A stretch of DNA of 64,000 bases, from NCBI GenBank assembly GCA_016704485.1, contig JADJAA010000001.1:1554824-1618823 (forward strand), given 5' to 3'. Shown in pieces: positions 15,497-43,362 of the stretch (positions are counted from its first letter, which is position 1; each line of letters starts with the position of its first letter). The notes beneath the pieces were generated by a model. It was not told the origin of the DNA, did no database searches, and saw only the letters and a list, made by a program, of their open reading frames with translations. The DNA is from Flavobacteriales bacterium (lineage in GTDB: Bacteria > Bacteroidota > Bacteroidia > Flavobacteriales_F > PHOS-HE28). The position numbers and the translations under genes were made by a program.

Positions 15497-15552
15497 TAGC
15501 TGGGCGCAATGGCGTGGTGGATGAAACGGGCTGCGGAAGAGCTATGCATGGA

Positions 15553-15696: not shown

Positions 15697-15719
15697 GGGG
15701 TGGTGCTGGTTGTTGAAAT

Positions 15720-17534: not shown

Positions 17535-17620
17535 CCTATGTATTGTCCTTCGTGTGATTATTGTTCAGCGCTGTATCAGTTAGCTGCGTGGCGAAGATGC
17601 GCCTAAAGTATTTGTTCAGA

Positions 17621-21079: not shown

Positions 21080-21301
21080 GGAGGCGCAATTGACGATATT
21101 CTAAGCACTTGTACAATTACAAGATGCGAATAAGTCGAGCCTATGATGTGCGGCTTGTGATGGTAACTGCCGCGTGTGGCCCTTTACGGCTCTAAAATAC
21201 ATGTGGATACTTCAGAACCGGTCTTCTTGCTGCTAAGAGAATGCTAATTCCTCTGAAGCACTACATTGCGGACATGTGCACCCACACACGCCTGCTATTA
21301 G

Positions 21302-23375: not shown

Positions 23376-23382
23376 CCATTTC

Positions 23383-23470
23383 CGATCCCTACTCCCCCCA
23401 AAACGCCCCCTGCAGCAAAAGCCCGAACAAGTCCTCGCTCCGGCGTAGGTTCGCAGTGGAACACCGGTAG
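23383..23470. repeat. Direct repeat copy 1 (~60-80 bp, ~80% identical to copy 2 at 24305..24395) flanking the 23477..24274 gene
   Basis: CCCCCCAAAACGCCCCCTGCAGCAAAAGCCCGAACAAGTCCTCGCTCCGGCGTAGG here versus CCCCCCGGAACGCCCCCTGCAACAAACTCCCGAACAAGCCCTCGCTCTGGTGTAAG at 24319. Confidence 0.6.
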
Positions 23471-23476
23471 TGCTGT

Positions 23477-24274: not shown

Positions 24275-24302
24275 TATGTCCGTGCTGCGTGATCCTCTTC
24301 CG

Positions 24303-27017: not shown

Positions 27018-28226
27018 TCAATGTTTGGTGATGGTGGTAAATTCCCATTTAGACTGTCCGTTCAGTTCGACTTGTTTGACTTGGCCGGAAACGAGGTCGC
27101 CATCCACAAGGCTGTGTAGTTTTATCAGATCCTTGTTGATGTAGGCATCGCCAGCATGGGCGTAGGTGTTATCGTTGCGTTTCTTGACCACGACGCGGCC
27201 CAGTTCTTTGGTATCACCGTCGAGTAGGGGAACTCCGTCGCTGCCTACCGCTTCCTCGTGTAGCCAGGTTCGGTTCGCCTTGGGGTCTGGATACTTTGCT
27301 GCGAACTTCTTGAACCAGACCAACACGTCCATGAGCTGGAACACGATGGTGCTCAAGAGGTAAGGCGTTACACCATGCTCGTGTAGTGCTTCGAGATTGT
27401 CCAAGCTGTAATTGGAATCCTCAGCGGTCTCGTCCGCATGCGAGCTTTCGCTGGTTACCCGCAGAATATTGTCCAGTGCATCGGCAACGATCCGGGGCAT
27501 CATCGGGCGGTCACACTTCAAGGCCACCGTGGCCGAAGAACGGCTCGGATAAAGCACGCGCTCGCCCCGCAGGAACAGTGCTGACAAGCGTTGGTTGACC
27601 CTCGGCTTTACAAGGACATCGGGTAGTAACCCGTGCCGATGCGCGGCATAGAAGAAGTGCTCCACTACCTGACGCAAAGGATTCATGAATAAGCGATCAC
27701 TACCGGACTTGTCCCCGCGATCCACAAAGCGCAATGCGTCCATGAACATAGGGTCGGCAACGGCATCCAAATAAGGAACTTGGAGCACTGCGAACACATC
27801 GGCATACCTATCACGAAGCGCTTGCTCGTTGCTTCGATCAACAAGGCTCTGTAGTTCCGCGTATAGGTCCTTCTCGTTCCCTTTCAAGTACCGCCGCTCA
27901 TCACGACGGTTCTTTGTTGCACCTTCGTCAAAGCCGGTATTGATCACATACGGAATATGAATGTTCGCTCCTTTCCATTGGTCCAGATCCCTGCGGGCTT
28001 CATGCAGGTGGTCGATGTCCTCGGTGGGTGAATGTTCATCCACCTGCCCTCTGGCATCGAGGATCAAGGCTTTGAAACGCTTTTCTCGGATCGGTTCCTT
28101 AGCCTCGGCCCAGGTCTTGAACCAAGTCACTTCGAAACCGTGCGCGACCGCCTTAGCAATTTGGGCTTTGGCGTATGCTTCATCGTCATCTACTAAGGCG
28201 ATCGGAACCAGGTCAAACAGTGTCAT
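27018..28226 (-). CDS. Response-regulator receiver (REC) domain protein with an uncharacterised ~280-aa C-terminal (effector?) domain
   Basis: ORF 27018..28289(-). Start at 28226 gives MTLFDLVPIALVDDDEAYAKAQIAKAVAHGFEVTWFKTWAEAKEPIREKRFKALILDARGQ, with an acidic pocket DDD and a phospho-acceptor-like D in ILDARG. The remainder has no recognisable family. Its start overlaps the stop of the upstream kinase gene by 14 nt. Confidence 0.65.
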   Translation of the reverse strand: MTLFDLVPIALVDDDEAYAKAQIAKAVAHGFEVTWFKTWAEAKEPIREKRFKALILDARGQVDEHSPTEDIDHLHEARRDLDQWKGANIHIPYVINTGFDEGATKNRRDERRYLKGNEKDLYAELQSLVDRSNEQALRDRYADVFAVLQVPYLDAVADPMFMDALRFVDRGDKSGSDRLFMNPLRQVVEHFFYAAHRHGLLPDVLVKPRVNQRLSALFLRGERVLYPSRSSATVALKCDRPMMPRIVADALDNILRVTSESSHADETAEDSNYSLDNLEALHEHGVTPYLLSTIVFQLMDVLVWFKKFAAKYPDPKANRTWLHEEAVGSDGVPLLDGDTKELGRVVVKKRNDNTYAHAGDAYINKDLIKLHSLVDGDLVSGQVKQVELNGQSKWEFTTITKH

Positions 28227-30909: not shown

Positions 30910-30971
30910 GCAACGGGGGTCAAAGTAAGCGGTGGAGGGTTATGGTGTAGATGTGTTTGCAGGTTATGATC

Positions 30972-32234
30972 TCAAGCGACTTTCTCCAGTCGGTTTGTCG
31001 GCAGAAGTTGGGCAGCCATACGATCCATGACCTCCCATTCCGGACGTGTGTACGAGTTGCTCTCCGTGACCACCGGGATCCTGAATTCGCCCATGGCATC
31101 CTCGCGCATAGCCCATTGATCCTTCTGGTCGTAGAGCTTTGTTCCGGGCAAAAGCATCAGCGGCCAAGCCTTAACGTCCCTGCAGCCTTTGGATAAGAGG
31201 TGGTCGATACTACGCTGGAAACTTTCCAAGGTCTGTCCGGGCAACCCGTAGATCAAACTCACTTCGAAAGGAATCTCGCGCTCCACAAGCTGTTCAATAG
31301 CAGCATCGACAAGATCCATCCGATTGGCGCGGTCAATTTTCTTGGACACTGCATGGTCCGTGGTCTGCAACCCGAACTCCAAGTGGAAGTTGGCTTGCGT
31401 ACAAAGGTCCAGGAATGCATTAACCTGTTGGCCTCGGATATTCTCAAAGCGCGATTGCAGGGTGAAGGTGGAGCGCGTACGGAGTTGAACGATCTCTTGC
31501 ATTATATCCAGGCACTCCTTCCCAGCGTTGAAGATGGGGTCGAGTATGTTCACGCGTTGCACACGATGTTCAGTGAGAAATGCTAACTCTTTAAAGACTT
31601 TATCCAGTGGGTGCTTATGCACGCGGTGAGTGGCGAGGTCGCGGTGTGCGCAAAATGAACACCGGTAGGGGCAGCCGCGTTTGGTCTCCAACCGTACCAT
31701 ACCGGCTCCCATTGGTACAGGCAATTCGCCAGTGAGATACGGTGAGGCCAGTTGTGTGAAGTCCACTGGTACGTTCACGAACACGGGTTCGTCGGCATCG
31801 AGATGGTCCGTCAATTCGGCAAAGGCTTGTTCGGCTTGTCCGGAGATGAAGACCTGGCAATCCGGATACCGACGCAGCAATTCTGCTCGGTTCCCGTAGG
31901 TGACTTGATACCCTCCGAGGACCACCTTGCCAAGGAACCCAAGACGACGAAGCAATGCGATGATGCCATTGGTGAGGTACTCGTTCCAGATGTAAGCCGA
32001 GAGCGCGATGGCGTTAAAGCGGCTCACATCAAGCGCCGCGAGTTGCACTTCGAATTGCTCGGGTGTGGCCGTGCCGCCGTGTTCGAGCATGTTGATCGAG
32101 AGGTGTTCCACGTGCATCTGTCCACGCAGCCGTTCATTACTCCGTTGGTGTGCCAAGAGAGATGCGATCGCCAAGGGCTTGGTGATCTCACCGTGCCGGA
32201 TCAGGTCGAAGGATATGATGAGCGTGTTCGTCAT
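30972..32234 (-). CDS. B12-binding domain radical SAM protein
   Basis: ORF 30972..32282(-). There is an N-terminal cobalamin-binding-like Rossmann region. The radical SAM cluster motif is RGCPYRCSFCAH (CxxxCxxC). It sits 62 bp upstream of the MTase-kinase gene, which is co-oriented. Confidence 0.75.
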   Translation of the reverse strand: MTNTLIISFDLIRHGEITKPLAIASLLAHQRSNERLRGQMHVEHLSINMLEHGGTATPEQFEVQLAALDVSRFNAIALSAYIWNEYLTNGIIALLRRLGFLGKVVLGGYQVTYGNRAELLRRYPDCQVFISGQAEQAFAELTDHLDADEPVFVNVPVDFTQLASPYLTGELPVPMGAGMVRLETKRGCPYRCSFCAHRDLATHRVHKHPLDKVFKELAFLTEHRVQRVNILDPIFNAGKECLDIMQEIVQLRTRSTFTLQSRFENIRGQQVNAFLDLCTQANFHLEFGLQTTDHAVSKKIDRANRMDLVDAAIEQLVEREIPFEVSLIYGLPGQTLESFQRSIDHLLSKGCRDVKAWPLMLLPGTKLYDQKDQWAMREDAMGEFRIPVVTESNSYTRPEWEVMDRMAAQLLPTNRLEKVA

Positions 32235-32343
32235 TGGTCCTCGCCACCAAGGGTCTATATGGTTGGATAATCGCTCAACCAACGAACTTCCCTATGGCAA
32301 CGGACCAAAAGTCCCGGTCACCTGTGCAGTCTATCTGCACAGT

Positions 32344-33354
32344 TCATTTCGCGTAGTTCTTCTTCATTTCCATCACCCGCAAAAGCAGCGCTTGGCGTAG
32401 TTCTTCCGGCGCAATAACCTGTAGCCCTTCTCCATAAGATAACAACAAGGCTTGTAGCTCGTAGTTCAGCTTCACTTCTAAACGAATAGTCGCGCCGCCG
32501 TCTTTTCTCTTCACTACTTTCTGCGAACCGTGTATAGGCTTTGACTCCAAATAAGGCCAAAGTCTATCCGTGACTTGGATCTTGACAACAACAGCTTCTT
32601 GATCCGCAGGTACACTTACACCAACAACATCCTCAAAATACTCCGTGAAATCCACCTCATCGTTCGGTATGTATTTCACCTTACTGGGTACAATATCCCG
32701 GATCCGGTCCAAGGCCATATTGACAATACGCCCCTCTTCCTCAAGACCAAAAACAAACCAACGGTTGTTATACTGTTTCAAGTAATACGGATGGAGCAAC
32801 ACAATGCTAGGCGCATTTTGCTTGAAGCCTTGGTAAGATATTTCCAAGGCTTGCTCATTGATGATCGAATGAAATAATGTGGTAATGTGCTCGGCACCTT
32901 TCAAATACGGGTTCTGCTCAAACTCGATGACCTGAGCAGCCCCTTGTTTCAGCCCGAAACCAGCTTCCAACCGAGCAACTAATTCATCTACCCATTCAAA
33001 CTGCGGCATGCCCTTAAATCGGCTCAGCGTTAAGAGCGCCTCCTTCAATTGTTCCGCTTCGCTCTCGTTCAGCGGTCGCTTGTTGATAGAGAATTCAAGG
33101 TCACTGTACCGGTAAAAAGTACGCTTTCCGTCTTTGTGTTTCTCCAGCGGGATAGCCCATCCTTGTTCGCTCTCCATGTACTTGATGTCCTCGAAAACTT
33201 GGCGGCGGCTGATGCTTGCACCTGCTCCGGTGAACTCCTCCAACGCCATGTTGCAAGCTTCCATCAGGTCTTCGATGAAATACTCGCGCCCACGGTTCGC
33301 AAAGCAACGGTCCATTGTCTGATAGCGAATAAGGGCATTCTTATTTACGGGCAT
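32344..33354 (-). CDS. WYL-domain transcriptional regulator (N-terminal wHTH + WYL + C-terminal WCX-like)
   Basis: 336 aa. The WYL signature is LLHPYYLKQYNNRWFVFGL, with an N-terminal HTH-like region. It has BrxR/CapW-like architecture. It is the first gene of the co-oriented block 33354->24303. Confidence 0.75.
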   Translation of the reverse strand: MPVNKNALIRYQTMDRCFANRGREYFIEDLMEACNMALEEFTGAGASISRRQVFEDIKYMESEQGWAIPLEKHKDGKRTFYRYSDLEFSINKRPLNESEAEQLKEALLTLSRFKGMPQFEWVDELVARLEAGFGLKQGAAQVIEFEQNPYLKGAEHITTLFHSIINEQALEISYQGFKQNAPSIVLLHPYYLKQYNNRWFVFGLEEEGRIVNMALDRIRDIVPSKVKYIPNDEVDFTEYFEDVVGVSVPADQEAVVVKIQVTDRLWPYLESKPIHGSQKVVKRKDGGATIRLEVKLNYELQALLLSYGEGLQVIAPEELRQALLLRVMEMKKNYAK

Positions 33355-33487: not shown

Positions 33488-33900
33488 CGCTGCCAGCTGG
33501 GTGGTAACCTGCACCAAGCTTGATGGTACCACACACCAAGCTTAGTGGTACCCTGTGCCAAGCTTAGTGGTACCTTGCACTAAGCTTGATGGTACCCTGC
33601 ACTAAGCTTAGTGGTACCCTGCACTAAGCTTAGTGGTACTCTGCACTAAGCTTAATGGTACCCTGCACCCAGTTGGGTGGTACCCTCCACCCAGCAGGGT
33701 GGTACCCTGCACCCAGTTGGGTGGTACCCTGCACTAAGCTTAGTGGTACCCTGCACTAAGCTTAGTGGTACTCTGCACTAAGCTTAATGGTACCCTGCAC
33801 CCAGTTGGGTGGTACCCTGCACCCAGTTGGGTGGTACCCTGCACCCAGTTGGGTGGTACCCCGCACTAAACTTAATGGTACCCGACACCAAGCTCAATAG
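33488..33900. repeat. Tandem array of ~19 copies of a 22-bp unit GGTACCCTGCACTAAGCTTAGT (variant units GGTACCCTGCACCCAGTTGGGT)
   Basis: Read directly from the sequence. Each unit contains the palindrome GGTACC plus either the 10-bp palindrome CTAAGCTTAG or the near-palindrome CCCAGTTGGG. A ~90-bp higher-order block (A-A-A-B) is itself duplicated. There are no unique spacers. It is non-coding because the unit length is not a multiple of 3. Confidence 0.9.
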
Positions 33901-33984: not shown

Positions 33985-34202
33985 GTCCGCTATCTATACC
34001 ATACTACTATAGGGCACATTGAACCTTAGTCTGGACTTCCGCCTTCGGAACTGCATTCGCTGCCAGATGATCATTGGGGTGCAATTATCCCAAACCTATA
34101 CCATATTACTATAGGGGGCATAAGCCTCCATCTCCGGCTCGTGAACTTTGGAGGTAAAGATGGTGTGATTTGACCTACTACCTATACCATATTACTATAT
34201 GG
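33985..34202. repeat. Three dispersed copies (~100 bp spacing) of a 20-nt near-palindromic motif CCTATACCATAYTACTATAGGG
   Basis: Copies are at ~33985 (ctataccatactactataggg), ~34089 (cctataccatattactataggg) and ~34178 (cctataccatattactatatgg). They lie between the two tandem arrays. Confidence 0.7.
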
Positions 34203-34287
34203 TGCTTTGCACCGTGCGCCTCGTGGTGCACACTTGTGGTTCAGAACTGCTTCATGTAGGCCTGGTGCAAGAGGCTGTATTTGTTCC

Positions 34288-34758
34288 ATTGGTACATGGC
34301 CTTGTCCCGTAAGTACATGTACTTGTGCCTTTGGTACATGTACTTGTCCCGTGAGTACATGTACTTGTCCCGTAAGTGCATGTACTTGTCCCGTGAGTAC
34401 ATGTACTTGTCCCGTGAGTACATGTACTTGTCCCGTAAGTACATGTACTTGTCCCGTAAGTACATGTACTTGTGCCGTTGGTACATGTACTTGTCCCGTA
34501 AGTACATGTACTTGTGCCGTTGGTACATGTACTTGTGCCGTTGGTACATGTACTTGTGCCGTGAGTACATGTACTTGTGCCGTGAGTACATGTACTTGTC
34601 CCGTAAGTACATGTACTTGTGCCGTTGGTACATGTACTTGTCCCGTAAGTACATGTACTTGTCCCGTAAGTACATGTACTTGTCCCGTAAGTACATGTAC
34701 TTGTCCCGTAAGTACATGTACTTGTGCCGTGAGTATGTGTACCTGTACCATGTGTAAC
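34288..34758. repeat. Tandem array of ~22 copies of a 21-bp unit TACATGTACTTGTCCCGTAAG (variants GTGCCGTTGG / CCGTGAG)
   Basis: Read directly from the sequence. Each unit contains the perfect 10-bp palindrome GTACATGTAC. Because 21 bp equals 7 codons, all frames are open, which explains four overlapping artefactual ORFs in the track (34182..34788). Confidence 0.9.
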
Positions 34759-35042
34759 GATACTTCAAGTTACAGTACACTTACTTGATACAGAGGTGCT
34801 TATGCCATTGCGTGGGGTATGCCTGCTTGTAACACGGGGACTGATAACCCACTCAGCGTCAGGCGTAAAGAGTGATCCGAACGTTGCCCGTGCTGCATAA
34901 CCCATCCTCGAGCGGCCGCGTGCGGGCTACAGTAAATGAAAAGAACCCCGGCCAGTTGTGCTAGGATTCTTCCGTTCGGGGATGGTGTATGAGTGGCAGG
35001 GTCGTCTGCTATGCGGCAGACTGACCCTGAGCGGGTTTAAAA

Positions 35043-35457: not shown

Positions 35458-36426
35458 TCAAGCCTTTATGAACTCGTTCACAAAAGCTTGTACAAATTGC
35501 TTGGCTAAAGCAGAGTAAGGCTTGGTCGGCTCTGTCAGTTGCATCAGCAATTCCACCTCTTGCTCGATCATCGCCTCAATTGTTCCTGTGGTCTTTTTTA
35601 CAAGTTTGTTCAATGTACGTGTTGGTACTTTATCCTTGAATGATCTGATATCCTTACCGATCTCGTTCGATAGGTCGATCAATTTCAAGATCATCTCAAA
35701 ACGCATTTTTAATCGCAGAATGTATTCTCTGCGCATATCGACCAACCCCTTTCTATTCAAGCCGTAGATCTCAATGGAACGGATCGCTTTTTGCCAATGG
35801 ATCTCCCTTTTTATCACGTTCTCTGATGAGGGCAAAGCAATGGCCTTCATTACTCCTGAGTCATCGTATTCCAAGTATTTGCTAGGTTCGTCCGTACAAG
35901 GGTTCAACAACAAACATTGTTCGCCTGAAATATCGAACAGCGGCGCACTCGCACGCATTGTTTCATCAAACAATGGAAAAGAGTTTGCCTTTCCTTGTTT
36001 TAGCTTTTTCCATTGATAGGACCCATCTATGGGGTTCTTTCGATACACATATTGATAGCGCGCTCTATTGCAGTCTATGCATGAAGGGAGTAGATTATCC
36101 CATTCCATTGCGAGCTTAGCATATACACCTACTTTAGTTTCGGTCTTGTTCGTCAATTCTACGAGCACTTCGGATTTGGGTCTGAAATGCTCAATATCCA
36201 GCGGTTGTGTGCGCGTGTAAGGTGATTCGCAATATGCACATTTACCATGGAACATAAGCTCCAACAACTCAGGCACTTTTTCGTGCTTGTAAAGCTTGAA
36301 ATCGGGCTTTAGGTCCTTGTGGAAATCGCTTCGAAGCCATGCTTCCACCTCTTCCTTTTCTTTGTTGAAGGCATCCGAGGTTATGGTAAGTGCCTGCGGG
36401 GCATTTACGCGTTTTCGTTTGATCAT
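35458..36426 (-). CDS. HNH endonuclease-domain protein, PtuB-like (TIGR02646-type)
   Basis: 322 aa. The HNH motif is GKCAYCESPY...DIEHFRPKS...NLLPSCIDCN. The central region is paralogous to the N-terminal domain of the upstream 795-aa protein. Confidence 0.7.
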   Translation of the reverse strand: MIKRKRVNAPQALTITSDAFNKEKEEVEAWLRSDFHKDLKPDFKLYKHEKVPELLELMFHGKCAYCESPYTRTQPLDIEHFRPKSEVLVELTNKTETKVGVYAKLAMEWDNLLPSCIDCNRARYQYVYRKNPIDGSYQWKKLKQGKANSFPLFDETMRASAPLFDISGEQCLLLNPCTDEPSKYLEYDDSGVMKAIALPSSENVIKREIHWQKAIRSIEIYGLNRKGLVDMRREYILRLKMRFEMILKLIDLSNEIGKDIRSFKDKVPTRTLNKLVKKTTGTIEAMIEQEVELLMQLTEPTKPYSALAKQFVQAFVNEFIKA

Positions 36427-36434
36427 TGAAGAGC

Positions 36435-38822
36435 TCAGTTGTTCAGGCGCCAGGAAGCATCCGTTAAAGCCTCTATTATCTTCTTAGTGGGTTTGGGAAA
36501 TCGTACGTTGGTCGGTGACTTCATCAAGTGCTCATCGATCAGCCTCAACAAGTACATATCACGCCGACTACTACCGAGAATGCTCTTTCTGTTGAGTCGT
36601 TCATGTAGATCCTTCAGTTGTGCCTTACCCGAATCATCTAACGCCGATGCCTTCGCTATGAGGTTGTAATAGCGGTCAAAGAATTCAGCTGTGCGCGGGT
36701 CCAGGGTTGTACTTAATCCGAATAATTCTGAGGTAAGGAGCTGGTCGGAACGTAAGCCAGCCGGCGAATCCATGTCGTCGTGTACTGTAGCCATGGAAGG
36801 GTCGTCCACATTTCTCTTGACCAATGCTACTTCACCAGCACCCAGCCCATGCAGGCATAGTGGCTCATGGGTGCTCGCGATGAATTGGATAAGCGGAAAT
36901 GTCTGTTCCAATCTTCTTAAGATGCTCATGCGCCAACTCGGGTGCAGATGTGCACCGATCTCATCAATTAGTACCACGCCTCTAATTTGATGCGTATCCG
37001 TTGGATTGCCTGCCATTATATCACAGGCTAGACCAACCATGGTCTTGTAACCCGCACTAAAATGCTTTAAGCGGGTGAATGACCCGTTCACGAAAAGCCC
37101 GAATTGTGTTGGCTTGTTGTTTTCAAATTGAAAGTCGAGACGTGTAGAATTATCTGTAAGATCCAGCAGGTCCTTCAAGGCCACACAAACATCGAAGAAC
37201 TGCTGTTGATTCTTTACCACTATGGTACGTAACCACTCTTCGGCATCTACCATGGGATAGAACGGGTCAAAGAGGTTCTGGATGTTCTTATTCACTCCCC
37301 TTTTCTCTAACAGATCAGAACTCTTGCCTTTTTGCGGCAGCAATCGAACAGGCCCGTATGCACGAAGAAATATATTCGGGACCTCACCTTGCTCCCATTT
37401 TAATCCGCTATTCGTGATGTTCACTACGATAGGATCTGTTCGCTGATGAAAGTAGACTTCAATTCTACCTGACGTAGCTCCACGCCTCAAGCTAGTGCTG
37501 AAATGCTCCTTCATCTTACTCAAGGCTTTCTTGCCGCTGAGTATCAATGCAAGTGCTTCGAGCAGCGAACTTTTTCCTGACCCGTTCTCACCCAGCAGCA
37601 TTTTCCAACCGCTGTGTCGAAAGGTTTCCTGTTGTGGAGATTCGGAGCCGTTTTCGTCGATCGTCTTCCGGCGTTCCTCTTGATTGCCTCCCGCTGTTTC
37701 CGTGTTCAAGTCTAAGTTCAGTTCACGTTCTGTGTCTACTAGGTCTTTCGGGCGTTCTTGGGGGATCAAGAATACAGCCTTCTCGAAGATCCTGTAATTC
37801 TCAACTATTAATTTGCTAATGGTCAGCGCTTGATGCGCGACTTTCTCCTTGGACGGCGCATTCTCTGTGGCGGTTTTCGGAGGAGTTCTTTGCGCCTCGG
37901 AACTCGTCTTCTTTGGAGACTCCTTATTAGCGCGTGTTGATCCCGGTTTCGTACGCGCTCCGGTCTCAGCTTCTAATAAGGACCCAGGCTTATTGAGCCC
38001 TTTGCTTATTGTTTCGACGTGCAGGCCGTCGCCTTGAATGAGGATTTTTAGTCCGAAGTCCTCCTTAAGAACATGGTTACTCAGATTCCGCATTGGACTT
38101 TGCGGGTCTATCAGTCCTTTCAAGAAGTGATCTTCTTCTACGGTTCGAGGTAGTTTCTCACCCTTTTTTTTAAGAACCAGAGACTTTGTCAAGTCGCGAA
38201 CTCGGTGAACCATATCACTCCTTCTATTGATGGCGGATTTCCGGTTCAGGTCCAGAGTTTCAATGGTCACCTCGGCTCGTCGCTTCTGCATGTGCCCTAA
38301 AGTGGAACGAGGCTTTATCATTCCATTAGATGAATAGTCGAAGTACTCCTCCGGATCGTCTTCATAAGGATTCAGCAAATACGGTTCTTCTTTCTCGAGC
38401 GCACTCCCCCGAGGCTGGTCATCAGCATGCTTGATAGGAACACGTTTTCCGGCGATGGGAAACTGTGCTCCCTTTGCAAAACTGCACTCATTGCATATGG
38501 GTAGCATGTTCTGCCAATCAAACAATAGCCACCAATAGTGGTCGCCAACCTGCTCATTTGGTTCCACTTTTACCGGTCGGTACAGGTCGATGTGTACCGT
38601 CTTTTCATTCAAGGGTGCTTCGCAATACGCACATGCATTATTGGAGGTTTCCAGAAGATCTCGGTTTACATCACGAGAATACTGTGGAGCCTTGTGTCTT
38701 ATCTGGCTTCGCTTCTCTAAAGGTTGCGCATAAAACTTCCGAAGTTCATTGAACGTCTTCTCTCCTTCCGTACTGTACTGTAGGTCTGGTGGAGATACTT
38801 TACTTCGGTTCAGTTTTCTCAT
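36435..38822 (-). CDS. Fusion of an N-terminal HNH (PtuB-like) domain with an AAA15/ABC-type ATPase (PtuA-like)
   Basis: 795 aa. The N-terminus has NACAYCEAPL...HIDLYRPV...NMLPICNECS (HNH). The ATPase has Walker A LLGENGSGKSSLLEALALIL, Walker B VVLIDEIGAHLHPS, and ASTHEP (a D-loop/H-motif region). Its stop (36435) is 9 nt from the downstream HNH gene start. Confidence 0.7.
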   Translation of the reverse strand: MRKLNRSKVSPPDLQYSTEGEKTFNELRKFYAQPLEKRSQIRHKAPQYSRDVNRDLLETSNNACAYCEAPLNEKTVHIDLYRPVKVEPNEQVGDHYWWLLFDWQNMLPICNECSFAKGAQFPIAGKRVPIKHADDQPRGSALEKEEPYLLNPYEDDPEEYFDYSSNGMIKPRSTLGHMQKRRAEVTIETLDLNRKSAINRRSDMVHRVRDLTKSLVLKKKGEKLPRTVEEDHFLKGLIDPQSPMRNLSNHVLKEDFGLKILIQGDGLHVETISKGLNKPGSLLEAETGARTKPGSTRANKESPKKTSSEAQRTPPKTATENAPSKEKVAHQALTISKLIVENYRIFEKAVFLIPQERPKDLVDTERELNLDLNTETAGGNQEERRKTIDENGSESPQQETFRHSGWKMLLGENGSGKSSLLEALALILSGKKALSKMKEHFSTSLRRGATSGRIEVYFHQRTDPIVVNITNSGLKWEQGEVPNIFLRAYGPVRLLPQKGKSSDLLEKRGVNKNIQNLFDPFYPMVDAEEWLRTIVVKNQQQFFDVCVALKDLLDLTDNSTRLDFQFENNKPTQFGLFVNGSFTRLKHFSAGYKTMVGLACDIMAGNPTDTHQIRGVVLIDEIGAHLHPSWRMSILRRLEQTFPLIQFIASTHEPLCLHGLGAGEVALVKRNVDDPSMATVHDDMDSPAGLRSDQLLTSELFGLSTTLDPRTAEFFDRYYNLIAKASALDDSGKAQLKDLHERLNRKSILGSSRRDMYLLRLIDEHLMKSPTNVRFPKPTKKIIEALTDASWRLNN

Positions 38823-38823
38823 C

Positions 38824-40638
38824 TTAACTATGTGCTATTCTGTGGAACGTGTTCGCCAAATAGTGCTTCGGGTTAGTCCTGGCGATCAGGTCGAATTGTG
38901 CTTCGCTCAGGCCGGCCAGCATATTGGCATAGAGCTCCTTTTCTGATAGGTGGTTCCTCACGACAAAAAAGTCTGTACCGAACAGGACCCGTTCACCGAG
39001 TTTCTTCACTGAATGGTCGATCGTCTTTTTCAGTAACGGTTGTATCCACGGATCGTGCAATATGTAACTGATATCTGCATAAACGTTCTCATAGCGCAAC
39101 ATCATACTGCAAATGATCGTGTACCAGTCAGCTTCCATCCAGTGAGCGTAGACACGTGTCCATTGGATGCGCTTGTGTTCGTTGTCATAATACGATCGAT
39201 GAAATAATCCGCTTTCAGCATGCAGGTTCAGATCTTGGTTGTACTGGTCATTATCGGCTTCTAAATGTCGTTTCCATTCATCAACACCACCAAAATGTGC
39301 CAAGCAGATCTTCAATTGAGAAAGTGATCGGAATTTTTCATCGGGACCTTTTTCGAACAACGTTTGAATTCGGGGTTGGCAGCTCACGAGGTGCTCCCTC
39401 AAGAGGTCATCATCCAGCAGGCAGAGGTAGTTCAATGGATGTGTGTAGTTCTTTTGAAAGTCGATTCCGCGAAGTTCCAACAGGTCAATGGGTGCGATCA
39501 CCGTATCGTCATGTGCGTCCTCTATTCCGGTTGAACGCTTGAAGACAGGATGCTTTGCCATTTCATCAGTGATCTTGTCTCGGGAATATATTGTGCCATG
39601 CACGCAATGGGTCATGATCGGTAAACCTTCCTGAGCTGCATACGCCCACACGGGCAATAGGTCTTCATCGAAAGGATAATAACCTAAAGCCGGGTAGATC
39701 TTGAATCCGCAGCAACCATTGCTTAGATACTTCTGGACTTTACATTCAAGCAAGACTACTTTACCGTATTCTACTTTCCACTTGAAGAAGTCATCCTCTT
39801 CACGAATTCGGCGTGGATCAATGAAGATGAAAGGCAGTATTTGATGTCCATGATCTTCACCTTTGGTAAGTTTTACAAGCCCTTCCATTTGTTTGTGGAA
39901 ATCACCTAATCGGTGGACCTTCCCCGCACCCATGTATTTCATATCCATTGGTAGAACAATGAATTTGGTTTCGGCTGGGTACTGGGCCCGGAGTTTTTGA
40001 AAGAGTAGACTTAGTCGCCTTTGGTCATCACCGGTTTTCGCACTTTTCGTCTCGTAACCATAAGAGCTGAAGCGTGCGATAAGTACGTATCGCTCCAAAA
40101 GGTCCATGTACTCCGTAGCAGGAAAGCTCTTGATCATTGGAACAAACTTTTGTAGAAGGAACCAGATCTGTCTTCGAACGGCTGGGATGAATGCAATAAT
40201 TGCTGCTACGAATATGGTCTTGATCGCCCAGTGTAATTCATGAAAGTATAATTTATACTTTACAAGTAACGCCAAGAACGCCGCGATATATTTCGACCCG
40301 CCATAGAAGGTGCTTTCAACCAAAACTTCATAAAGGAATAATAACACATAGATCGTAACGATCAAATTAAACGCACCTCGTACAAACTTCAAGAAGCTGT
40401 TTCGTTGGATCCTGTTCTGCGCCTTTACCTTGTTTATGCGTATGGTTTCTTGTGCCGGTTCATACCGCTCGGCATACTTCCGTCGGTTGCACTTCACGTA
40501 AAGTTTCATGAAGTAATCCATTCGCGCCCACTTGTACAACGGCCACGGAAGAATACCCTTTGCATGCTCTGGAGGCACGTGATAGTTGTTGAACAAGTGC
40601 ACGTGGCAGTTCACTATGGGGTCCTTCACTTTACTCAT
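38824..40638 (-). CDS. Membrane-anchored amidohydrolase-superfamily (metal-dependent TIM-barrel hydrolase, Amidohydro_2-like) protein
   Basis: 604 aa. The N-terminal metal-binding motif is VNCHVHLF. A ~80-aa insertion carries 2-3 TM helices (LIVTIYVLLFLY, IFVAAIIAFIPAV). Then come IMTHCVHG, CLAHFGG and VLFGTDFF. It ends 2 nt before the start of the HNH-ATPase gene. Confidence 0.6.
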   Translation of the reverse strand: MSKVKDPIVNCHVHLFNNYHVPPEHAKGILPWPLYKWARMDYFMKLYVKCNRRKYAERYEPAQETIRINKVKAQNRIQRNSFLKFVRGAFNLIVTIYVLLFLYEVLVESTFYGGSKYIAAFLALLVKYKLYFHELHWAIKTIFVAAIIAFIPAVRRQIWFLLQKFVPMIKSFPATEYMDLLERYVLIARFSSYGYETKSAKTGDDQRRLSLLFQKLRAQYPAETKFIVLPMDMKYMGAGKVHRLGDFHKQMEGLVKLTKGEDHGHQILPFIFIDPRRIREEDDFFKWKVEYGKVVLLECKVQKYLSNGCCGFKIYPALGYYPFDEDLLPVWAYAAQEGLPIMTHCVHGTIYSRDKITDEMAKHPVFKRSTGIEDAHDDTVIAPIDLLELRGIDFQKNYTHPLNYLCLLDDDLLREHLVSCQPRIQTLFEKGPDEKFRSLSQLKICLAHFGGVDEWKRHLEADNDQYNQDLNLHAESGLFHRSYYDNEHKRIQWTRVYAHWMEADWYTIICSMMLRYENVYADISYILHDPWIQPLLKKTIDHSVKKLGERVLFGTDFFVVRNHLSEKELYANMLAGLSEAQFDLIARTNPKHYLANTFHRIAHS

Positions 40639-40766: not shown

Positions 40767-41864
40767 TTAAGAATTAGGTACTATCTGCACACCAAACCGG
40801 AACTGGAAATTCTTCTTCACGAAATCATCTCCGGAATACCAATTAGCCACTATTCGAACGACGCTATTCAATGCTAAACCTGCGCTGAATTGCCAAAGAT
40901 CGATACCTCCCTCTGACGTACGATCAAGATTATGCCAAAAAACAGCATTTCCACTTATGTGAGAATAGCGCACTTGACCAAAAAGAGCCATGCGATCCTT
41001 AATCCCAGTAAGTGAAAATACCATTTCTGCACCATTATCAAAGTTTTGGCCAACGACATTTGTGTCTACCCCGATCTTAGGAAGATCGAAGGATAATCGA
41101 GGTGCATAATGCAAGCGAATGGACAATCGACGGTTCAGTGAGGTAAATCCGACAATTGGCACACCGAAATTCAAAACCCCGTTTCCGCCACCGCCAAGAA
41201 TACGTTGCACCTGATCTTGGAAAGTGGCGCTGGAGTCTGAAACTGGCACTGTATCTGGCTCACTCGTCTTGTTGCTGATCAGCGCACCAAAACCCATTCG
41301 CACTGGTCCGAAATAATCATAAACAACCTCCGAGTATAGAGATGCTTTCTGTGCTTGCCCACTATACGTGAGGAGATTATTCTTTAGGAGTTTTCCCCGT
41401 TCCTCTTCAGAACTGAAACCATCGTAGAAATATTCCGTCGCAATTCGCCGGACCGCCAAGCCATAAAGCCCTTCTGTTACATCCGGATCGAACCGGATGC
41501 GCAACAATTCTTCTCTGTACGACTGGAAATCCTGCCTTCGCTGTCGATATGCGGCTTTCAGTGAATCGATCAGTTCTTTTGAATCGGCGGAGCGGTCATT
41601 ATCCAGTGCTTGGAACGAAGCTCTTCGGAATGCTTGTTTGTGTTTCTTGTTTTCGGCTCGATCGTCTTTCAAAAATGCATATACACTCTTTACTTGTATT
41701 GACGAATCAGACGGTTCAAGGAATTTATTCAGTTCAACTTTTGTTAAGTCTATGTTGCTTTTCCGAGACTCACTGTTTGGAAAAACAAATGGCCCCGTTT
41801 GTGCGAACATTGTGCATGAGGTTGAAAGCAGGAATATCGCAATTGTTGTTCGTCTCATTGTCAT
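40767..41864 (-). CDS. Secreted hypothetical protein (signal peptide; possible outer-membrane beta-rich protein)
   Basis: 365 aa. The N-terminus MTMRRTTIAIFLLSTSCTMFAQ. No family recognised. Confidence 0.5.
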   Translation of the reverse strand: MTMRRTTIAIFLLSTSCTMFAQTGPFVFPNSESRKSNIDLTKVELNKFLEPSDSSIQVKSVYAFLKDDRAENKKHKQAFRRASFQALDNDRSADSKELIDSLKAAYRQRRQDFQSYREELLRIRFDPDVTEGLYGLAVRRIATEYFYDGFSSEEERGKLLKNNLLTYSGQAQKASLYSEVVYDYFGPVRMGFGALISNKTSEPDTVPVSDSSATFQDQVQRILGGGGNGVLNFGVPIVGFTSLNRRLSIRLHYAPRLSFDLPKIGVDTNVVGQNFDNGAEMVFSLTGIKDRMALFGQVRYSHISGNAVFWHNLDRTSEGGIDLWQFSAGLALNSVVRIVANWYSGDDFVKKNFQFRFGVQIVPNS

Positions 41865-41884
41865 ATACTTTTCAGTTCAATTAT

Positions 41885-42676
41885 TTAGACTTCTACACCA
41901 TAAGATTCCGTGAACGCCGCTTCAGCGTATGATTTGCTGGCGTAAGCAAACCCTTTGTCTCCCCACAGAGTGGTTCCCCAACTGTTTCGCACGATGAAAT
42001 GATCAGGCGTGTATCCGACAATAGAGACAGCGTGGCCACCTAGGTTGTCGCTGGCACGGTAGCGCGCTAGTTTGCCCCGTGTCTCTTTCGCATCCATAAA
42101 GGCGTTGTCACAGTTCAGCCGGGTGAGAATGGGGCCTTTGTTGGCGATCCAGCGCCGCCATTCATTCAGGTCTTGGCCTAATGAGAAGTAGCGCATCACC
42201 TTCAACTGCGCAGCAATCGCGTAGAACACATCGGTCTCATCCGGATAGAGTATTCCGCGACCGAAAGGCAACACGCTATCCAGCACTGCGCCGTATTTGC
42301 GCGATACATCGAGTGCTGCTTTCAGACTGGTTCCATCGCTTTCAATGAATGAGGTTGGTTTGTCGGTGAATTCATCGATCTCCTTTGCGGCCATCCATGT
42401 AAAGCGCGTGCTAAGCCTACGGTTGGTGGCGATCCTTCCGGCTTTTGCGAAATGCCAACGCAGCACACCTTCGGCGCAAGCCCAGCCAACGCACGAGCCG
42501 GTACTTCCTTGGTCGCCAATGGTCCACCAATCTTCTCGCAAGTCTTTTTTAGGCGGAGGTGGTGCTGGTGCGCGTAGTGCGCCAGCGGCACGTGCTGTGT
42601 GCAAGTTCCAATCGTTTGCGGTGTTCAATGAAGGAAGGCAATTGAGGACGCGGGGAGGTGATTTCTTTGTTGCCAT
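41885..42676 (-). CDS. Papain-like cysteine peptidase (C1 family)
   Basis: Catalytic Cys context QGSTGSCVGWA. His context GGHAVSIVGY. Asn/Trp NSWGTTLWGDKGFAYASKSY. Confidence 0.7.
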   Translation of the reverse strand: MATKKSPPRVLNCLPSLNTANDWNLHTARAAGALRAPAPPPPKKDLREDWWTIGDQGSTGSCVGWACAEGVLRWHFAKAGRIATNRRLSTRFTWMAAKEIDEFTDKPTSFIESDGTSLKAALDVSRKYGAVLDSVLPFGRGILYPDETDVFYAIAAQLKVMRYFSLGQDLNEWRRWIANKGPILTRLNCDNAFMDAKETRGKLARYRASDNLGGHAVSIVGYTPDHFIVRNSWGTTLWGDKGFAYASKSYAEAAFTESYGVEV

Positions 42677-42708
42677 TTTTTTGAGGAATTTGTTGACTTA
42701 AGCTTCGT

Positions 42709-43362
42709 TCATGCGCTCCACCGCCACCCCAACACATCACTCGCCGGGTAACTACTTACACAAACACTATTACTCTGATTACCGCCTAACACCATGATGC
42801 CGGTACCGCGCGTTTCGAGGTAGAAGGCCACATGGCCACTGGTGGTGCTGTTGCCGCGTTTGAAGACTGCGATGCATCCGGGAACGGGCTCGTTAATTTT
42901 TTTGCCCCATTGCAACCAGCTGCGAGCGGCGGCGGAGTTGGTGCCGCGCAAGTTTGCTTTGGTGATGCACCAGTTAACGAATGACGAGCACCATGCCACC
43001 TCATCGGTGGTTGCTTTGAGACCTGTAGTACTGTGGTATTCAATTATGCGCTGGTTATGCTCAGGACCTGGATATTCCTTAACACCGATCTCTGCACGGG
43101 CGATCTTCAACCAAGCAGGCTCATCTATCGGTGGAGCGGTGGCAACCGGTTCGATGTAGGTGGTGCTTACCCAACCGGTAAGTGTGCCATCGCGCAATTT
43201 TGCGCTCACTTGCGCCCAACCATTCCGCGGTCCTTGCAAGAGGTCCAATGCGGTATGCTGCGGTAGGCGACCGATGATGGATCGATTGGTACTTGGGCCT
43301 TCGCGAAGGCGAAGTACAGAGGCGGTGGTGCGGTGAGTTGGCATGGTGTTTCGTTCGAACAA
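42709..43362 (-). CDS. SH3b domain + TIGR02594/CHAP-like amidase (putative peptidoglycan hydrolase)
   Basis: The N-terminal SH3b region is ASVLRLREGPSTNRSIIGRLPQHTALDLL...GWV. The C-terminal region has EVAWCSSFVNWC...GHVAFY (Cys/His of the CHAP/NlpC-P60 fold). Confidence 0.6.
   Translation of the reverse strand: MFERNTMPTHRTTASVLRLREGPSTNRSIIGRLPQHTALDLLQGPRNGWAQVSAKLRDGTLTGWVSTTYIEPVATAPPIDEPAWLKIARAEIGVKEYPGPEHNQRIIEYHSTTGLKATTDEVAWCSSFVNWCITKANLRGTNSAAARSWLQWGKKINEPVPGCIAVFKRGNSTTSGHVAFYLETRGTGIMVLGGNQSNSVCVSSYPASDVLGWRWSA

What the first reader, a model, noticed from the sequence alone, without database searches (positions are those of the whole stretch)
35458..40638. Septu-like operon with an HNH-AAA15 fusion, a second stand-alone HNH paralog and a membrane amidohydrolase
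Classical Septu is PtuA (AAA15/ABC ATPase) + PtuB (HNH, TIGR02646-like). Here the ATPase gene (36435..38822) carries its own N-terminal HNH domain (CAYCEAPL...HIDLYRPV...CNEC). A second HNH protein, with a paralogous central domain, follows 9 bp downstream. A 604-aa amidohydrolase-fold protein with an inserted transmembrane hairpin ends 2 bp upstream, which suggests a three-gene operon. A membrane-anchored metal-dependent hydrolase as an extra Septu component is not something I recognise as described.
Basis: partly seen in the sequence, partly recalled or inferred. Interest (0 to 1): 0.7.

Follow-up and report, generated by a model that had tools for sequence, protein, structure and literature searches.

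The report
Septu defence operon with membrane amidohydrolase
A known two-gene anti-phage nuclease system (Septu) shares an operon here with a membrane-anchored metal hydrolase, and that hydrolase turns out to be a roaming accessory gene found beside several different nuclease-based defence modules in Bacteroidota, which points to an undescribed immune-associated component.

Summary
The three minus-strand genes exist as described. Genes 2 and 3 are a stand-alone Septu system (PADLOC PtuA E 1.6e-157, PtuB E 1.2e-68; no retron). The HNH-PtuA fusion is already built into PADLOC's PtuA models. The fused HNH domain is a pseudo-nuclease: Leu replaces the catalytic His (Ec78 PtuB His57). The separate PtuB keeps the His/Asn dyad.

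The 604-aa protein is a catalytically intact amidohydrolase-fold enzyme with a two-helix membrane hairpin. Its stop codon lies 1 nt before the ptuA start. It is not Septu-specific. Of 63 informative loci retrieved through it, 8 have Septu directly adjacent on the same strand, in about 8 scattered lineages and both gene orders. A further 15 have metallo-beta-lactamase nuclease modules, and about half have neither. Most close relatives of the fused PtuA lack it. Two family members are fused to STAND NTPases.

The best reading is a Septu core plus a facultative, modular, defence-associated membrane hydrolase. I found no description of this partner in PADLOC, NCBIfam or the searchable literature. 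Its substrate and role are unknown. This is a new variant of a known kind, of moderate interest.

The parts
38824..40638 (-). Membrane-anchored amidohydrolase (604 aa) and first gene of the operon. It is a TIM-barrel metal hydrolase with a helical insert of about 150 residues between strand 1 and strand 2.
40591..40608 (-). C-H12-V-H14-L-F: the HxH metal-binding motif on barrel strand 1.
   Evidence: Invariant in the family. Coordinates.
40306..40371 (-). Hydrophobic helix 1 of the membrane hairpin (residues 90-111).
   Evidence: Hydropathy at least 1.6. AlphaFold helix 81-109. Hydrophobic in all homologs.
40177..40230 (-). Hydrophobic helix 2 of the membrane hairpin (residues 137-154). It is followed by a basic stretch (RRQ..K), which is consistent with a cytoplasmic catalytic domain.
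   Evidence: The topology is inferred from the even number of helices and the flanking Lys/Arg residues.
38965..39708 (-). Remaining invariant active-site motifs: GFK313IYP, IMTH344C, CLAH448FGG, VYAD522ISY, FGTD556FF.
   Evidence: Invariant or nearly invariant (84-85 of 85 family members); identical in all 10 Septu-linked copies. Coordinates.
36435..38822 (-). PtuA with a fused N-terminal PtuB-like domain (795 aa).
   Evidence: PADLOC PtuA E 1.6e-157. The top 50 Foldseek PDB hits are all PtuA chains, E about 1e-15. phmmer matches solved PtuA structures.
38028..38822 (-). PtuB-like domain (residues 1 to about 265): an HNH beta-beta-alpha core plus a helical bundle. Predicted to be catalytically inactive.
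   Evidence: PADLOC PtuB models E 3e-30 and TIGR02646 at 63 bits. AlphaFold secondary structure.
38574..38594 (-). H-I-D-L80-Y-R-P: the position of the catalytic His (Ec78 PtuB His57) is Leu. The Asn73 equivalent (N105, in WQNML at 38475-38516) is retained.
   Evidence: Alignment of 23 fused domains and 11 PtuBs. Mapping to 9vh1_F. Catalytic dyad His57/Asn73 and loss of defence with H57A from PMC12804668 and PMC12819146.
37836..37994 (-). Low-complexity Lys/Pro/Ser/Thr-rich linker (residues 277-329), predicted to be disordered.
   Evidence: pLDDT 24-33. Sequence.
36438..37826 (-). ABC-type ATPase body with a C-terminal helical extension (residues 333-795). Motifs: Walker A GENGSGK417S (37566-37592), signature FSAGYK (37041-37061), Walker B VVLID620E621 (36939-36977), H-loop STH652EP (36861-36878).
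35458..36426 (-). PtuB, the stand-alone HNH nuclease (322 aa) and the predicted catalytic subunit.
   Evidence: PADLOC PtuB E 1.2e-68. A profile of PtuBs hits solved PtuB structures, E 8e-13.
36178..36198 (-). D-I-E-H80-F-R-P: the catalytic His. The Asn partner is N111, in WDNLL at 36061-36102.
   Evidence: H80 and N111 are invariant in 11 PtuBs. They align with Ec78 PtuB His57 and Asn73.

Best explanation
The locus is a stand-alone (non-retron) Septu system of a subtype common in Bacteroidota. It is co-transcribed with a facultative accessory gene for a membrane-anchored amidohydrolase.

Septu core, by homology with solved PtuAB complexes:
- The ABC-type ATPase PtuA oligomerises and docks the HNH nuclease PtuB through its C-terminal helices.
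- It holds PtuB in check until a phage cue or a fall in ATP releases nuclease activity against DNA or tRNA, which stops the infection.
- In this subtype PtuA also carries a complete PtuB-like domain on a disordered tether of about 55 residues. That domain has lost the catalytic His (Leu80). I infer that it is a structural or regulatory pseudo-nuclease, perhaps occupying or mimicking the PtuB docking or substrate site. The separate PtuB (His80/Asn111) does the cutting.

Amidohydrolase:
- It is a catalytically intact metal hydrolase held at the inner membrane by a two-helix hairpin, with its barrel most likely on the cytoplasmic side.
- It is not a Septu subunit. It is a mobile module that repeatedly lands in the same operon as nuclease-type conflict modules (Septu, metallo-beta-lactamase nuclease pairs, trypsin-NucA). 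It is occasionally fused to STAND NTPases and also occurs alone.
- I think it most likely works as a separate enzymatic, effector-like arm that is co-expressed with these nuclease modules and acts on a small-molecule or envelope-related substrate at the membrane. It probably does not work as part of the PtuAB complex.

Shown: gene structure, domain identities, intact or degenerate catalytic residues, and the recurrent but facultative linkage.

Inferred: co-transcription, topology, the role of the pseudo-nuclease, any defence role of the amidohydrolase, and its substrate.
For: Septu identity:
- PADLOC, Pfam and NCBIfam hits.
- All top structural matches of the PtuA model are PtuA chains.
- No reverse transcriptase and no Rfam hit in the window.

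Pseudo-nuclease:
- All 11 stand-alone PtuBs keep D-[IV]-E-H-[FWY]-R-P. About two thirds of 23 fused domains, including this one, have lost the His.
- That His is Ec78 PtuB His57. H57A abolishes defence, and the catalytic dyad is His57/Asn73.

Amidohydrolase as an enzyme:
- H12, H14, D232, K313, H344, H448, D522 and D556 are invariant or nearly invariant (84-85 of 85 where the residue is present; H14 is Gln and H344 is Asp in one sequence each), and identical in all 10 Septu-linked copies.

Linkage to Septu:
- 1-nt spacer in the window. Overlapping or very short spacers in L032, L082, L063 and L015.
- 8 of 63 informative amidohydrolase-derived loci have Septu adjacent on the same strand. They fall in about 8 scattered lineages with 34-51% identity, in the orders amidohydrolase-A-B and A-B-amidohydrolase. 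One further locus is convergent (L091).
- 9 loci carry PtuA within 362 kb of inner flank, against 1 in 397 kb of outer flank.

Not Septu-specific:
- 9 loci have the c4-c2 pair and 6 have the c6 MBL module (PADLOC LmuA 1e-82). 4 have trypsin-NucA and 4 have an M19-like peptidase. 33 have none of these.
- Fused-PtuA relatives P0122, P0123, P0124, P0126, P0127 and P0130 have no adjacent copy.

Immune flavour of the module:
- Fusions to an nSTAND1 NTPase (P0212) and to a NACHT-like NTPase (P0199).
- The window gene sits inside a 30-kb defence island with reduced GC.

Precedent: PADLOC treated 'Hma', found often with Septu type I but also elsewhere, as a separate candidate system.
Against: - There is no experimental evidence for any function of the amidohydrolase.
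- No defence database model matches it.
- In about half of the informative loci its neighbours are ordinary metabolic, transport or conjugative-transposon genes. A non-immune role therefore remains possible.
- Co-phylogeny with PtuA is weak (Mantel r 0.28, p 0.06).
- One arrangement is convergent and so cannot be co-transcribed. Adjacency may reflect co-localisation and not joint function.
- The sample is the best-scoring 80 of 349 metagenome hits plus a few genomes. Genes were called with a crude ORF finder and the loci are not taxonomically balanced.
- The two STAND fusions point in different directions. One has intact N-terminal catalytic motifs. The other has lost all metal ligands, which would suit a sensor or anchor better than an effector.
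- Promoter and terminator scans were uninformative.
Confidence: 0.6

Rival explanations
1. This is an integral three-component Septu variant. The membrane amidohydrolase would be a required third subunit of this PtuAB, for example tethering it to the membrane or supplying a second obligatory activity.
For: - 1-nt spacer and overlapping stop/start codons in several loci.
- Adjacency recurs in about 8 lineages.
- The association is mostly with the fused-PtuA subtype.
- Association frequencies of 13-33% exceed those PADLOC used to name Hachiman II, Lamassu II and Thoeris II.
Against: - Six of nine close fused-PtuA/PtuB pairs lack an adjacent copy.
- About 85% of family members have no Septu nearby, and many are tightly linked to unrelated modules instead.
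- Gene order is not fixed and one case is convergent.
- Co-phylogeny is weak.
- Classical two-gene Septu is sufficient for defence (literature cited).
Confidence: 0.12
2. The amidohydrolase is an ordinary membrane-associated metabolic enzyme of Bacteroidota with no role in immunity. Its adjacency to Septu and other modules would reflect defence genes inserting into the same variable genome regions, or hitch-hiking.
For: - 33 of 63 informative loci show none of the recurrent modules. Their neighbours are mostly housekeeping genes such as ThuA, aminotransferases, FeoB, QueA and GH3.
- No PADLOC or NCBIfam model matches.
- No homologs in phage, plasmid or viral-contig collections.
- The closest folds are catabolic lactonases and decarboxylases.
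Against: - The partners are specific (HNH, MBL and NucA nuclease modules) and not defence genes in general. They are immediately adjacent, often with overlapping codons, on either side.
- Septu density is 9 loci in the inner flanks against 1 in the outer flanks.
- Two independent fusions to STAND NTPases.
- The gene has no fixed genomic position or conserved synteny.
- In the window it shares the low GC of the island.
Confidence: 0.18
3. The amidohydrolase is a sensor or gate, not an effector. It would bind or hydrolyse an infection-linked metabolite or envelope-derived molecule at the membrane and license the neighbouring nuclease module. This would be analogous to the way a retron RT-msDNA was recruited to control PtuAB.
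For: - Its partners (PtuAB, MBL nuclease pairs, trypsin-NucA) already have effectors.
- In P0199 a copy with all metal ligands lost sits at the C-terminus of a STAND NTPase after helical repeats. That is the usual sensor end.
- There is precedent for an accessory module taking over control of PtuAB.
Against: - Catalytic residues are strictly conserved in all 85 unfused copies, so catalysis and not mere binding is under selection.
- P0212 fuses a copy with intact N-terminal catalytic motifs to an NTPase that has no other effector.
- Many copies are solitary.
- There is no evidence of any interaction.
Confidence: 0.1

Closest known systems
Septu type I (PtuA ABC-ATPase + PtuB HNH nuclease; E. 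coli PtuAB structures 8EE4, 8EE7, 8EEA)
   Same: - Two adjacent co-directional genes.
- PtuA matches by profile and by fold.
- PtuB has an intact His/Asn dyad and a C-terminal domain.
- No retron is present.
- PADLOC names the matching models PtuA1 and PtuB1.
   Different: - PtuA carries an extra N-terminal PtuB-like domain that lacks the catalytic His, joined by a disordered linker. This is captured in PADLOC models, but I did not find it discussed in the papers I searched.
- A third, co-transcribed gene for a membrane amidohydrolase precedes ptuA.
Septu type II / type I-A retrons (reverse transcriptase 'PtuC' + ncRNA + PtuAB; Ec78/Eco7, Ec83)
   Same: A PtuAB core accompanied by an additional upstream gene. 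PADLOC defined this as a subtype from 7.6% of Septu systems. It shows that PtuAB can be co-opted by an accessory module.
   Different: The accessory here is an amidohydrolase and not a reverse transcriptase. There is no ncRNA (Rfam found nothing). NCBIfam retron-type PtuA and PtuB equivalogs score far below their cut-offs (96 against 500, and 58-74 against 150).
PADLOC candidate system 'Hma'
   Same: The pattern of evidence is the same: a module found frequently next to Septu type I but also often elsewhere, and therefore treated as a separate candidate defence system.
   Different: Hma is a helicase, m5C-methyltransferase and ATPase operon, with no sequence or functional resemblance to the amidohydrolase.
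Amidohydro_2 (PF04909) branch of the amidohydrolase superfamily (LigI lactonase, ACMSD and related decarboxylases, uncharacterised barrels 3IRS and 3CJP)
   Same: - (beta/alpha)8 barrel.
- HxH on strand 1, two further His residues and a strand-8 Asp.
- Pfam score above the gathering threshold.
   Different: - Only 11-18% identity.
- An invariant Lys (K313) on a central strand. From my own knowledge this is more typical of binuclear members such as phosphotriesterase and dihydroorotase.
- A unique insert of about 150 residues with two transmembrane helices.
- Genomic association with nuclease modules.
- No substrate can be inferred.
Amidohydrolase-superfamily immune effectors: RADAR RdrB and CRISPR-associated Cad1 adenosine deaminases (from my own knowledge, not tested)
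   Same: Metal-dependent TIM-barrel hydrolases of the same superfamily, used as effectors alongside an ATPase or sensor in anti-phage systems. They show that such enzymes can serve immunity.
   Different: - They belong to a different family (adenosine deaminase).
- They are soluble.
- The only structural match to RdrB was insignificant (rank 37, E 0.26, probability 0.11).
STAND NTPase immune receptors (Avs and nSTAND families)
   Same: Two family members are fused to STAND-type P-loop NTPases: P0212 to nSTAND1 (E 4e-32), and P0199 to a NACHT-like domain plus repeats.
   Different: The window protein is not fused to any NTPase. The fusions are rare, with 2 among the 150 best cluster representatives.

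Membership tests
Septu (PtuA + PtuB) | PtuA: an ABC/AAA_15-type ATPase that matches PtuA profiles. | tested here: met
   PADLOC PDLC00292 E 1.6e-157. Pfam AAA_21, SMC_N and AAA_15 are above their cut-offs. All 50 best Foldseek PDB hits are PtuA chains.
Septu (PtuA + PtuB) | PtuB: a TIGR02646-type HNH nuclease with a catalytic His/Asn dyad. | tested here: met
   PADLOC PtuB E 1.2e-68. H80 and N111 are invariant and align with Ec78 His57 and Asn73. NCBIfam TIGR02646 scores 47.9 bits, just under its 52.15 cut-off.
Septu (PtuA + PtuB) | The two genes are adjacent and co-directional. | tested here: met
   8-nt spacer, same strand. The pairing is conserved in every relative examined.
Septu (PtuA + PtuB) | Intact nucleotide-binding motifs in PtuA. 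| tested here: met
   Walker A GENGSGK417S, Walker B D620-E621, signature S589-x-G591 and H652 are invariant in 12 relatives. Whether it hydrolyses ATP is not testable here. Type I PtuA is reported to be hydrolysis-deficient.
Septu (PtuA + PtuB) | Protects against phage. | not testable with these tools
   Needs plaque or efficiency-of-plating assays.
Septu type II / retron type I-A | A reverse transcriptase and a retron ncRNA next to ptuAB. | tested here: not met
   No RT domain in neighbouring ORFs. No Rfam family in the whole window. The retron-type equivalogs NF041760 and NF041761 score far below their cut-offs.
Amidohydrolase superfamily (Amidohydro_2) | A (beta/alpha)8 barrel with HxH, His, His and Asp metal ligands. 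| tested here: met
Hypothetical 'three-gene Septu' with an obligatory amidohydrolase subunit | The third gene is present in most systems of the same PtuA clade, and the third gene is largely restricted to Septu neighbourhoods. | tested here: not met
   Adjacent in 3 of 9 fused-PtuA contexts: the window, L009 and L091 (convergent). About 10.5 kb away, with five genes between, in one more. Only 8 of 63 informative amidohydrolase loci have Septu adjacent on the same strand.
Known defence-system proteins (PADLOC-DB v2) | The amidohydrolase matches any model of a known or candidate defence protein. | tested here: not met
   No hit at E up to 0.01.

The most novel reading that the evidence does not exclude
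The membrane-anchored amidohydrolase is the founding member of an undescribed immune module of Bacteroidota. It would be an enzyme (or, in degenerate copies, a sensor or anchor) that plugs interchangeably into unrelated nuclease-based systems (Septu, MBL nuclease pairs, trypsin-NucA) and into STAND NTPases. The window would then carry a new three-gene Septu subtype in which nucleic-acid cleavage is combined with a membrane-proximal hydrolytic activity.
Probability: 0.4. Interest if true: 0.75.

Novelty: new variant of a known kind. Interest (0 to 1): 0.55.

Why it matters
Septu is one of the most widespread anti-phage systems, and the only accessory module known for it so far is the retron. 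If the amidohydrolase contributes to defence, three things would follow:

- It would add a new enzymatic class, a membrane-tethered Amidohydro_2 hydrolase, to the bacterial immune repertoire.
- It would give a second example of PtuAB being combined with an extra module.
- It would provide a handle on several uncharacterised Bacteroidota modules (protease + MBL nuclease pairs, and the c4-c2 pair) that share this partner.

Separately, most fused PtuB-like domains have lost the catalytic His. That suggests a built-in pseudo-nuclease which may regulate PtuB docking, and it is directly testable against the existing PtuAB structures. If the amidohydrolase turns out to be metabolic, the locus is simply a database-recognised Septu subtype.

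Tried and rejected
- **Retron-type Septu:** rejected. There is no RT and no Rfam hit.
- **Fused HNH domain as a second active nuclease:** rejected. The catalytic His is replaced by Leu.
- **A conserved fourth gene:** rejected. The 365-aa, Peptidase_C1 and SH3-CHAP genes upstream have no relatives at any other amidohydrolase locus. The genes flanking other Septu-linked copies belong to unrelated clusters with no Pfam match.
- **Single inherited cassette:** rejected. Septu-linked amidohydrolases are scattered over the family tree. PtuA and amidohydrolase distances correlate weakly. Related PtuAs (L015/L089, L060/L078) have the gene on opposite sides.
- **Amidohydrolase as a fixed core gene flanking an integration hotspot:** not supported, because both flanks vary.
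- **Sigma-70 promoter and terminator scans:** at chance level, and not designed for Bacteroidota.
- **Homologs on plasmids, phages or viral contigs:** none found.
- **Single-sequence genome scan:** returned only 3 loci because the patterns were too specific. The alignment-based metagenome scan was needed.
- **phmmer of PtuB alone against the PDB:** found nothing. A profile was needed.
- **One context without DNA:** the P0002/P0122 contig could be read only as a gene table.


Full report
**Observation.** The first stop codon (TAA) is followed by a single base and then the ATG of the second gene. The second stop (TGA) is followed by 8 nt and then the third ATG. The source is a Flavobacteriales MAG, because identical proteins P0001 and P0121 carry that name. 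The genes sit in a stretch of reduced G+C (0.44-0.48, against 0.50-0.59 around it). They lie at one end of a 30-kb defence island. The island holds a DpdF/UvrD-like helicase, GmrSD, a complete type I R-M system, an N6-methyltransferase-HATPase fusion, the PADLOC candidate PDC-M51A radical-SAM gene and a WYL regulator.

**Genes 2 and 3 are Septu.** The 795-aa protein matches PADLOC PtuA models (best E 1.6e-157) and passes the Pfam AAA_21, SMC_N and AAA_15 thresholds. It matches solved PtuA chains by sequence. Its AlphaFold model has only PtuA chains among the 50 best PDB matches (E about 1e-15). The Walker A, signature, Walker B and H-loop motifs are intact and invariant among relatives. The 322-aa protein matches PADLOC PtuB models (E 1.2e-68). 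A profile of it and ten relatives finds the solved PtuB structures (E 8e-13). No reverse transcriptase lies nearby and no Rfam family is found in the window. It is therefore a stand-alone Septu, type I in PADLOC's terms. Type II is the retron-associated form whose 'PtuC' is a reverse transcriptase (PMC8565338).

**The fusion is real but already known to databases.** Residues 1-220/238 of the ATPase match nearly full-length PtuB models (E 3e-30) and pass TIGR02646 (63 bits against 52.15). The region is 30% identical to the downstream PtuB over 181 residues. The model shows a PtuB-like domain (HNH core plus helical bundle, residues 1 to about 265), then a disordered linker (277-329, pLDDT about 25-33), then the ATPase. 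The architecture is not new to databases, however. The stand-alone PtuB matches positions 1-209 of PADLOC PtuA model PDLC00292, and also PDLC00288 and PDLC00291. Those models were therefore built from fused proteins. I found no paper that discusses the fusion.

**The fused domain has lost its catalytic His.** All 11 stand-alone PtuBs examined have D-[IV]-E-H-[FWY]-R-P. Roughly two thirds of 23 fused domains have Thr, Asn, Ser or Leu at the His position, and the window protein reads H-I-D-L-Y-R-P. Alignment to Ec78 PtuB shows that this His is His57. His57 forms the catalytic dyad with Asn73 (PMC12804668), and the H57A mutant abolishes defence (PMC12819146). The window's PtuB keeps both residues (H80, N111). 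The fused domain keeps only the Asn (N105). I infer that the fused domain is a pseudo-nuclease with a structural or regulatory role. In solved complexes the PtuB C-terminal domain docks on the C-terminal helices of a PtuA dimer. A tethered inactive copy could therefore compete for, or complement, that site. This last step is speculation.

**The amidohydrolase as a protein.**
- Pfam sees only the C-terminal third (Amidohydro_2, 43.7 bits).
- An AlphaFold model built on 34 homologs is confident (pLDDT 86).
- The metal-ligand set H12-x-H14, H344, H448 and D556, together with K313, D232 and D522, is invariant or nearly invariant (84-85 of 85 homologs where the residue is present; one sequence has Gln at position 14 and one has Asp at 344), and identical in all ten Septu-linked copies.
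- Between strand 1 and strand 2 every member carries a helical insert of about 150 residues. It has two strongly hydrophobic segments (residues 90-111 and 137-154 here).
- An even number of membrane helices, basic flanks and the lack of a signal peptide suggest a cytoplasmic barrel tethered to the inner membrane (inference).
- No PADLOC or NCBIfam model matches it.
- The family comprises 355 clusters (at 50% identity) with E up to 1e-30. All named members are Bacteroidota.

**Is it a Septu component? Evidence starting from the amidohydrolase.** I collected 86 loci through the amidohydrolase itself. Of these, 63 have at least 3 kb on one side or the other.

| Neighbour within 3 kb | Loci (of 63) |
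|---|---|
| Septu, directly adjacent on the same strand | 8 (7 non-redundant) |
| Septu, opposite strand about 2 kb away | 2 |
| c4-c2 pair (c2 is a distant MBL) | 9 |
| c6 MBL nuclease module | 6 |
| Trypsin-Endonuclease_NS protein | 4 |
| Peptidase_M19-like protein | 4 |
| None of these | 33 |

- In 7 of the 8 adjacent cases PtuA is of the fused type. Spacers run from a 14-nt overlap to +42 nt in six of the eight clusters; L060 shows a nominal 41-nt overlap that probably reflects an over-extended start call, and L089 has a 276-nt gap.
- Both orders occur: amidohydrolase-PtuA-PtuB in L015, L032, L082, L060 and L035, and PtuA-PtuB-amidohydrolase in L063, L078 and L089.
- The Septu-linked copies are scattered over the family tree and share only 34-51% identity.
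- PtuA genes are concentrated next to the amidohydrolase. Nine loci have one within 362 kb of inner flank. Only one has it in 397 kb of outer flank, and that one belongs to a system whose PtuB is 2.1 kb away.
- Pairwise distances of amidohydrolase and PtuA correlate only weakly (Mantel r 0.28, p 0.06). Related PtuAs have the gene on opposite sides. This argues for repeated re-association and against a single inherited cassette.

**Is it a Septu component? Evidence starting from PtuA.** I examined nine fused-PtuA relatives.
- Three have an adjacent amidohydrolase: the window, L009 and L091. In L009 the '551 aa, no Pfam' gene is a divergent family member. In L091 the gene is convergent, so it is not co-transcribed.
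- One (P0122) has the closest amidohydrolase homolog, P0002, on the same 21-kb contig. It is about 10.5 kb away, with five defence-type genes between.
- Five have none. Every one of them still has PtuB directly downstream.

**What else it associates with.** The same tight, either-side adjacency is seen with other modules.
- The c6 MBL protein matches PADLOC LmuA, RTasMBL and Avs1a (E 1e-82). It is paired with a subtilase, with a caspase plus Y4kD_C protein, or with an unknown 760-aa protein.
- The c4-c2 pair is an unknown protein of about 700 aa plus a distant MBL.
- In the 33 loci with none of these modules, the neighbours are mostly ordinary genes, with some conjugative-transposon genes and only sporadic defence hits.
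- Two family members are fused to STAND NTPases. P0212 is an nSTAND1 NTPase (E 4e-32) followed by a copy with intact HxH and D232 motifs. P0199 is a NACHT-like NTPase with helical repeats followed by a copy that has lost every metal ligand.
- No homolog was found in plasmid, phage or viral-contig collections.

**Interpretation.** The linkage is nonetheless far from random. It is immediate, recurs in many lineages and in several arrangements, and is specific to nuclease-containing modules and not to defence genes in general. The STAND fusions give the module an independent immune flavour. The pattern resembles the one PADLOC reported for 'Hma', which is often found beside Septu type I but also elsewhere and was therefore treated as a separate candidate system. 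The association frequencies here (13% from one side, about 33% from the other) exceed those used in that paper to name the Hachiman II, Lamassu II and Thoeris II subtypes.

My best reading, at confidence 0.6, is a Septu core plus a facultative, modular, defence-associated membrane hydrolase. That hydrolase would act as a separate enzymatic arm co-expressed with nuclease modules. The remaining rivals are:
- it is an integral third subunit (0.12);
- it is a sensor or gate (0.10);
- it is simply a metabolic enzyme that happens to lie in variable regions (0.18).

**Novelty and score.** I found no mention of an amidohydrolase partner of Septu. I also found no mention of this family in defence, in PADLOC-DB v2, in NCBIfam or in the searchable literature. 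The Septu part is already known. The accessory gene and the pseudo-nuclease observation make the locus a new variant of a known kind. I score interest at 0.55. A specialist would find the recurrent, promiscuous partner and the dead fused nuclease noteworthy and easy to test, but nothing here yet shows that the amidohydrolase contributes to immunity.

Noticed in passing
window 33501-33894 and 34292-34746: Two non-coding tandem-repeat arrays lie between the WYL regulator gene and ptuB. One is 22 bp x 17.9 copies (83% match, with a 132-bp higher-order unit). The other is 21 bp x 21.7 copies (91% match). The long 'ORFs' at 34182-34788 in four frames are artefacts of the second array. There are no spacers, so they are not CRISPR-like.
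   Followed up: partly
P0212 (699 aa, truncated by its contig end) and P0199 (1475 aa), from the representative-protein search: These are fusions of the membrane amidohydrolase to STAND NTPases. P0212 is nSTAND1 plus a copy with intact HxH and D232 motifs. P0199 is a NACHT-like P-loop plus helical repeats plus a copy with all metal ligands replaced (H12/H14 to N/N, K313 to Y, H344 to N, H448 to G, D556 to G).
   Followed up: partly
L011, L023, L027, L031, L040, L058, L064, L070, L075, L076 (c4-c2 pair); L004, L030, L037, L055, L074, L081 (c6 module): Uncharacterised two-gene modules sit tightly beside the amidohydrolase. One is a protein of about 700 aa with no family plus a distant metallo-beta-lactamase of about 490 aa. 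The other is an LmuA/RTasMBL/Avs1a-like MBL nuclease paired with a subtilase, a caspase plus Y4kD_C protein, or an unknown 760-aa protein. These look like undescribed conflict systems in their own right.
   Followed up: partly
P0122 contig (gene table only), L088:9317-10786, L078:11663-13636: A DUF2779/Cas4-like nuclease recurs next to fused-type Septu, and on the P0122 contig it is followed by a UvrD helicase. EEP-family nucleases (Exo_endo_phos) and patatin also recur in these islands.
   Followed up: no
window 28213-33354: A block of three co-directional genes: an N6-adenine methyltransferase fused to specificity-like and histidine-kinase-type HATPase domains (898 aa), a B12-binding radical-SAM protein matching the PADLOC candidate PDC-M51A (E 6.6e-117), and a WYL-WCX regulator. 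This is possibly a candidate modification-based defence system with its regulator.
   Followed up: no
window 10664-27004: The rest of the defence island: a 1610-aa double helicase (a DpdF-like DEAD helicase plus a UvrD/GajB-like helicase), a GmrSD-type restriction enzyme, and a complete type I R-M system (HsdR 17621-21079, HsdS 24303-25448, HsdM 25445-27004). Two unannotated genes lie alongside (23477-24451 and 27018-28289).
   Followed up: partly
window 40767-43362: Upstream of the amidohydrolase on the same strand lie a 365-aa lipoprotein-like protein with no family match, a papain-family Peptidase_C1 protein and an SH3_3-CHAP peptidoglycan hydrolase. None recurs at other amidohydrolase loci. 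The 365-aa gene shares the low G+C (0.44) of the amidohydrolase.
   Followed up: partly
L035:8069-9922: One Septu-linked locus has an unfused PtuA, with no N-terminal HNH domain, split into 445-aa and 147-aa ORFs. This could be a frameshift or an assembly error. It shows that the amidohydrolase association is not strictly limited to the fused subtype.
   Followed up: no
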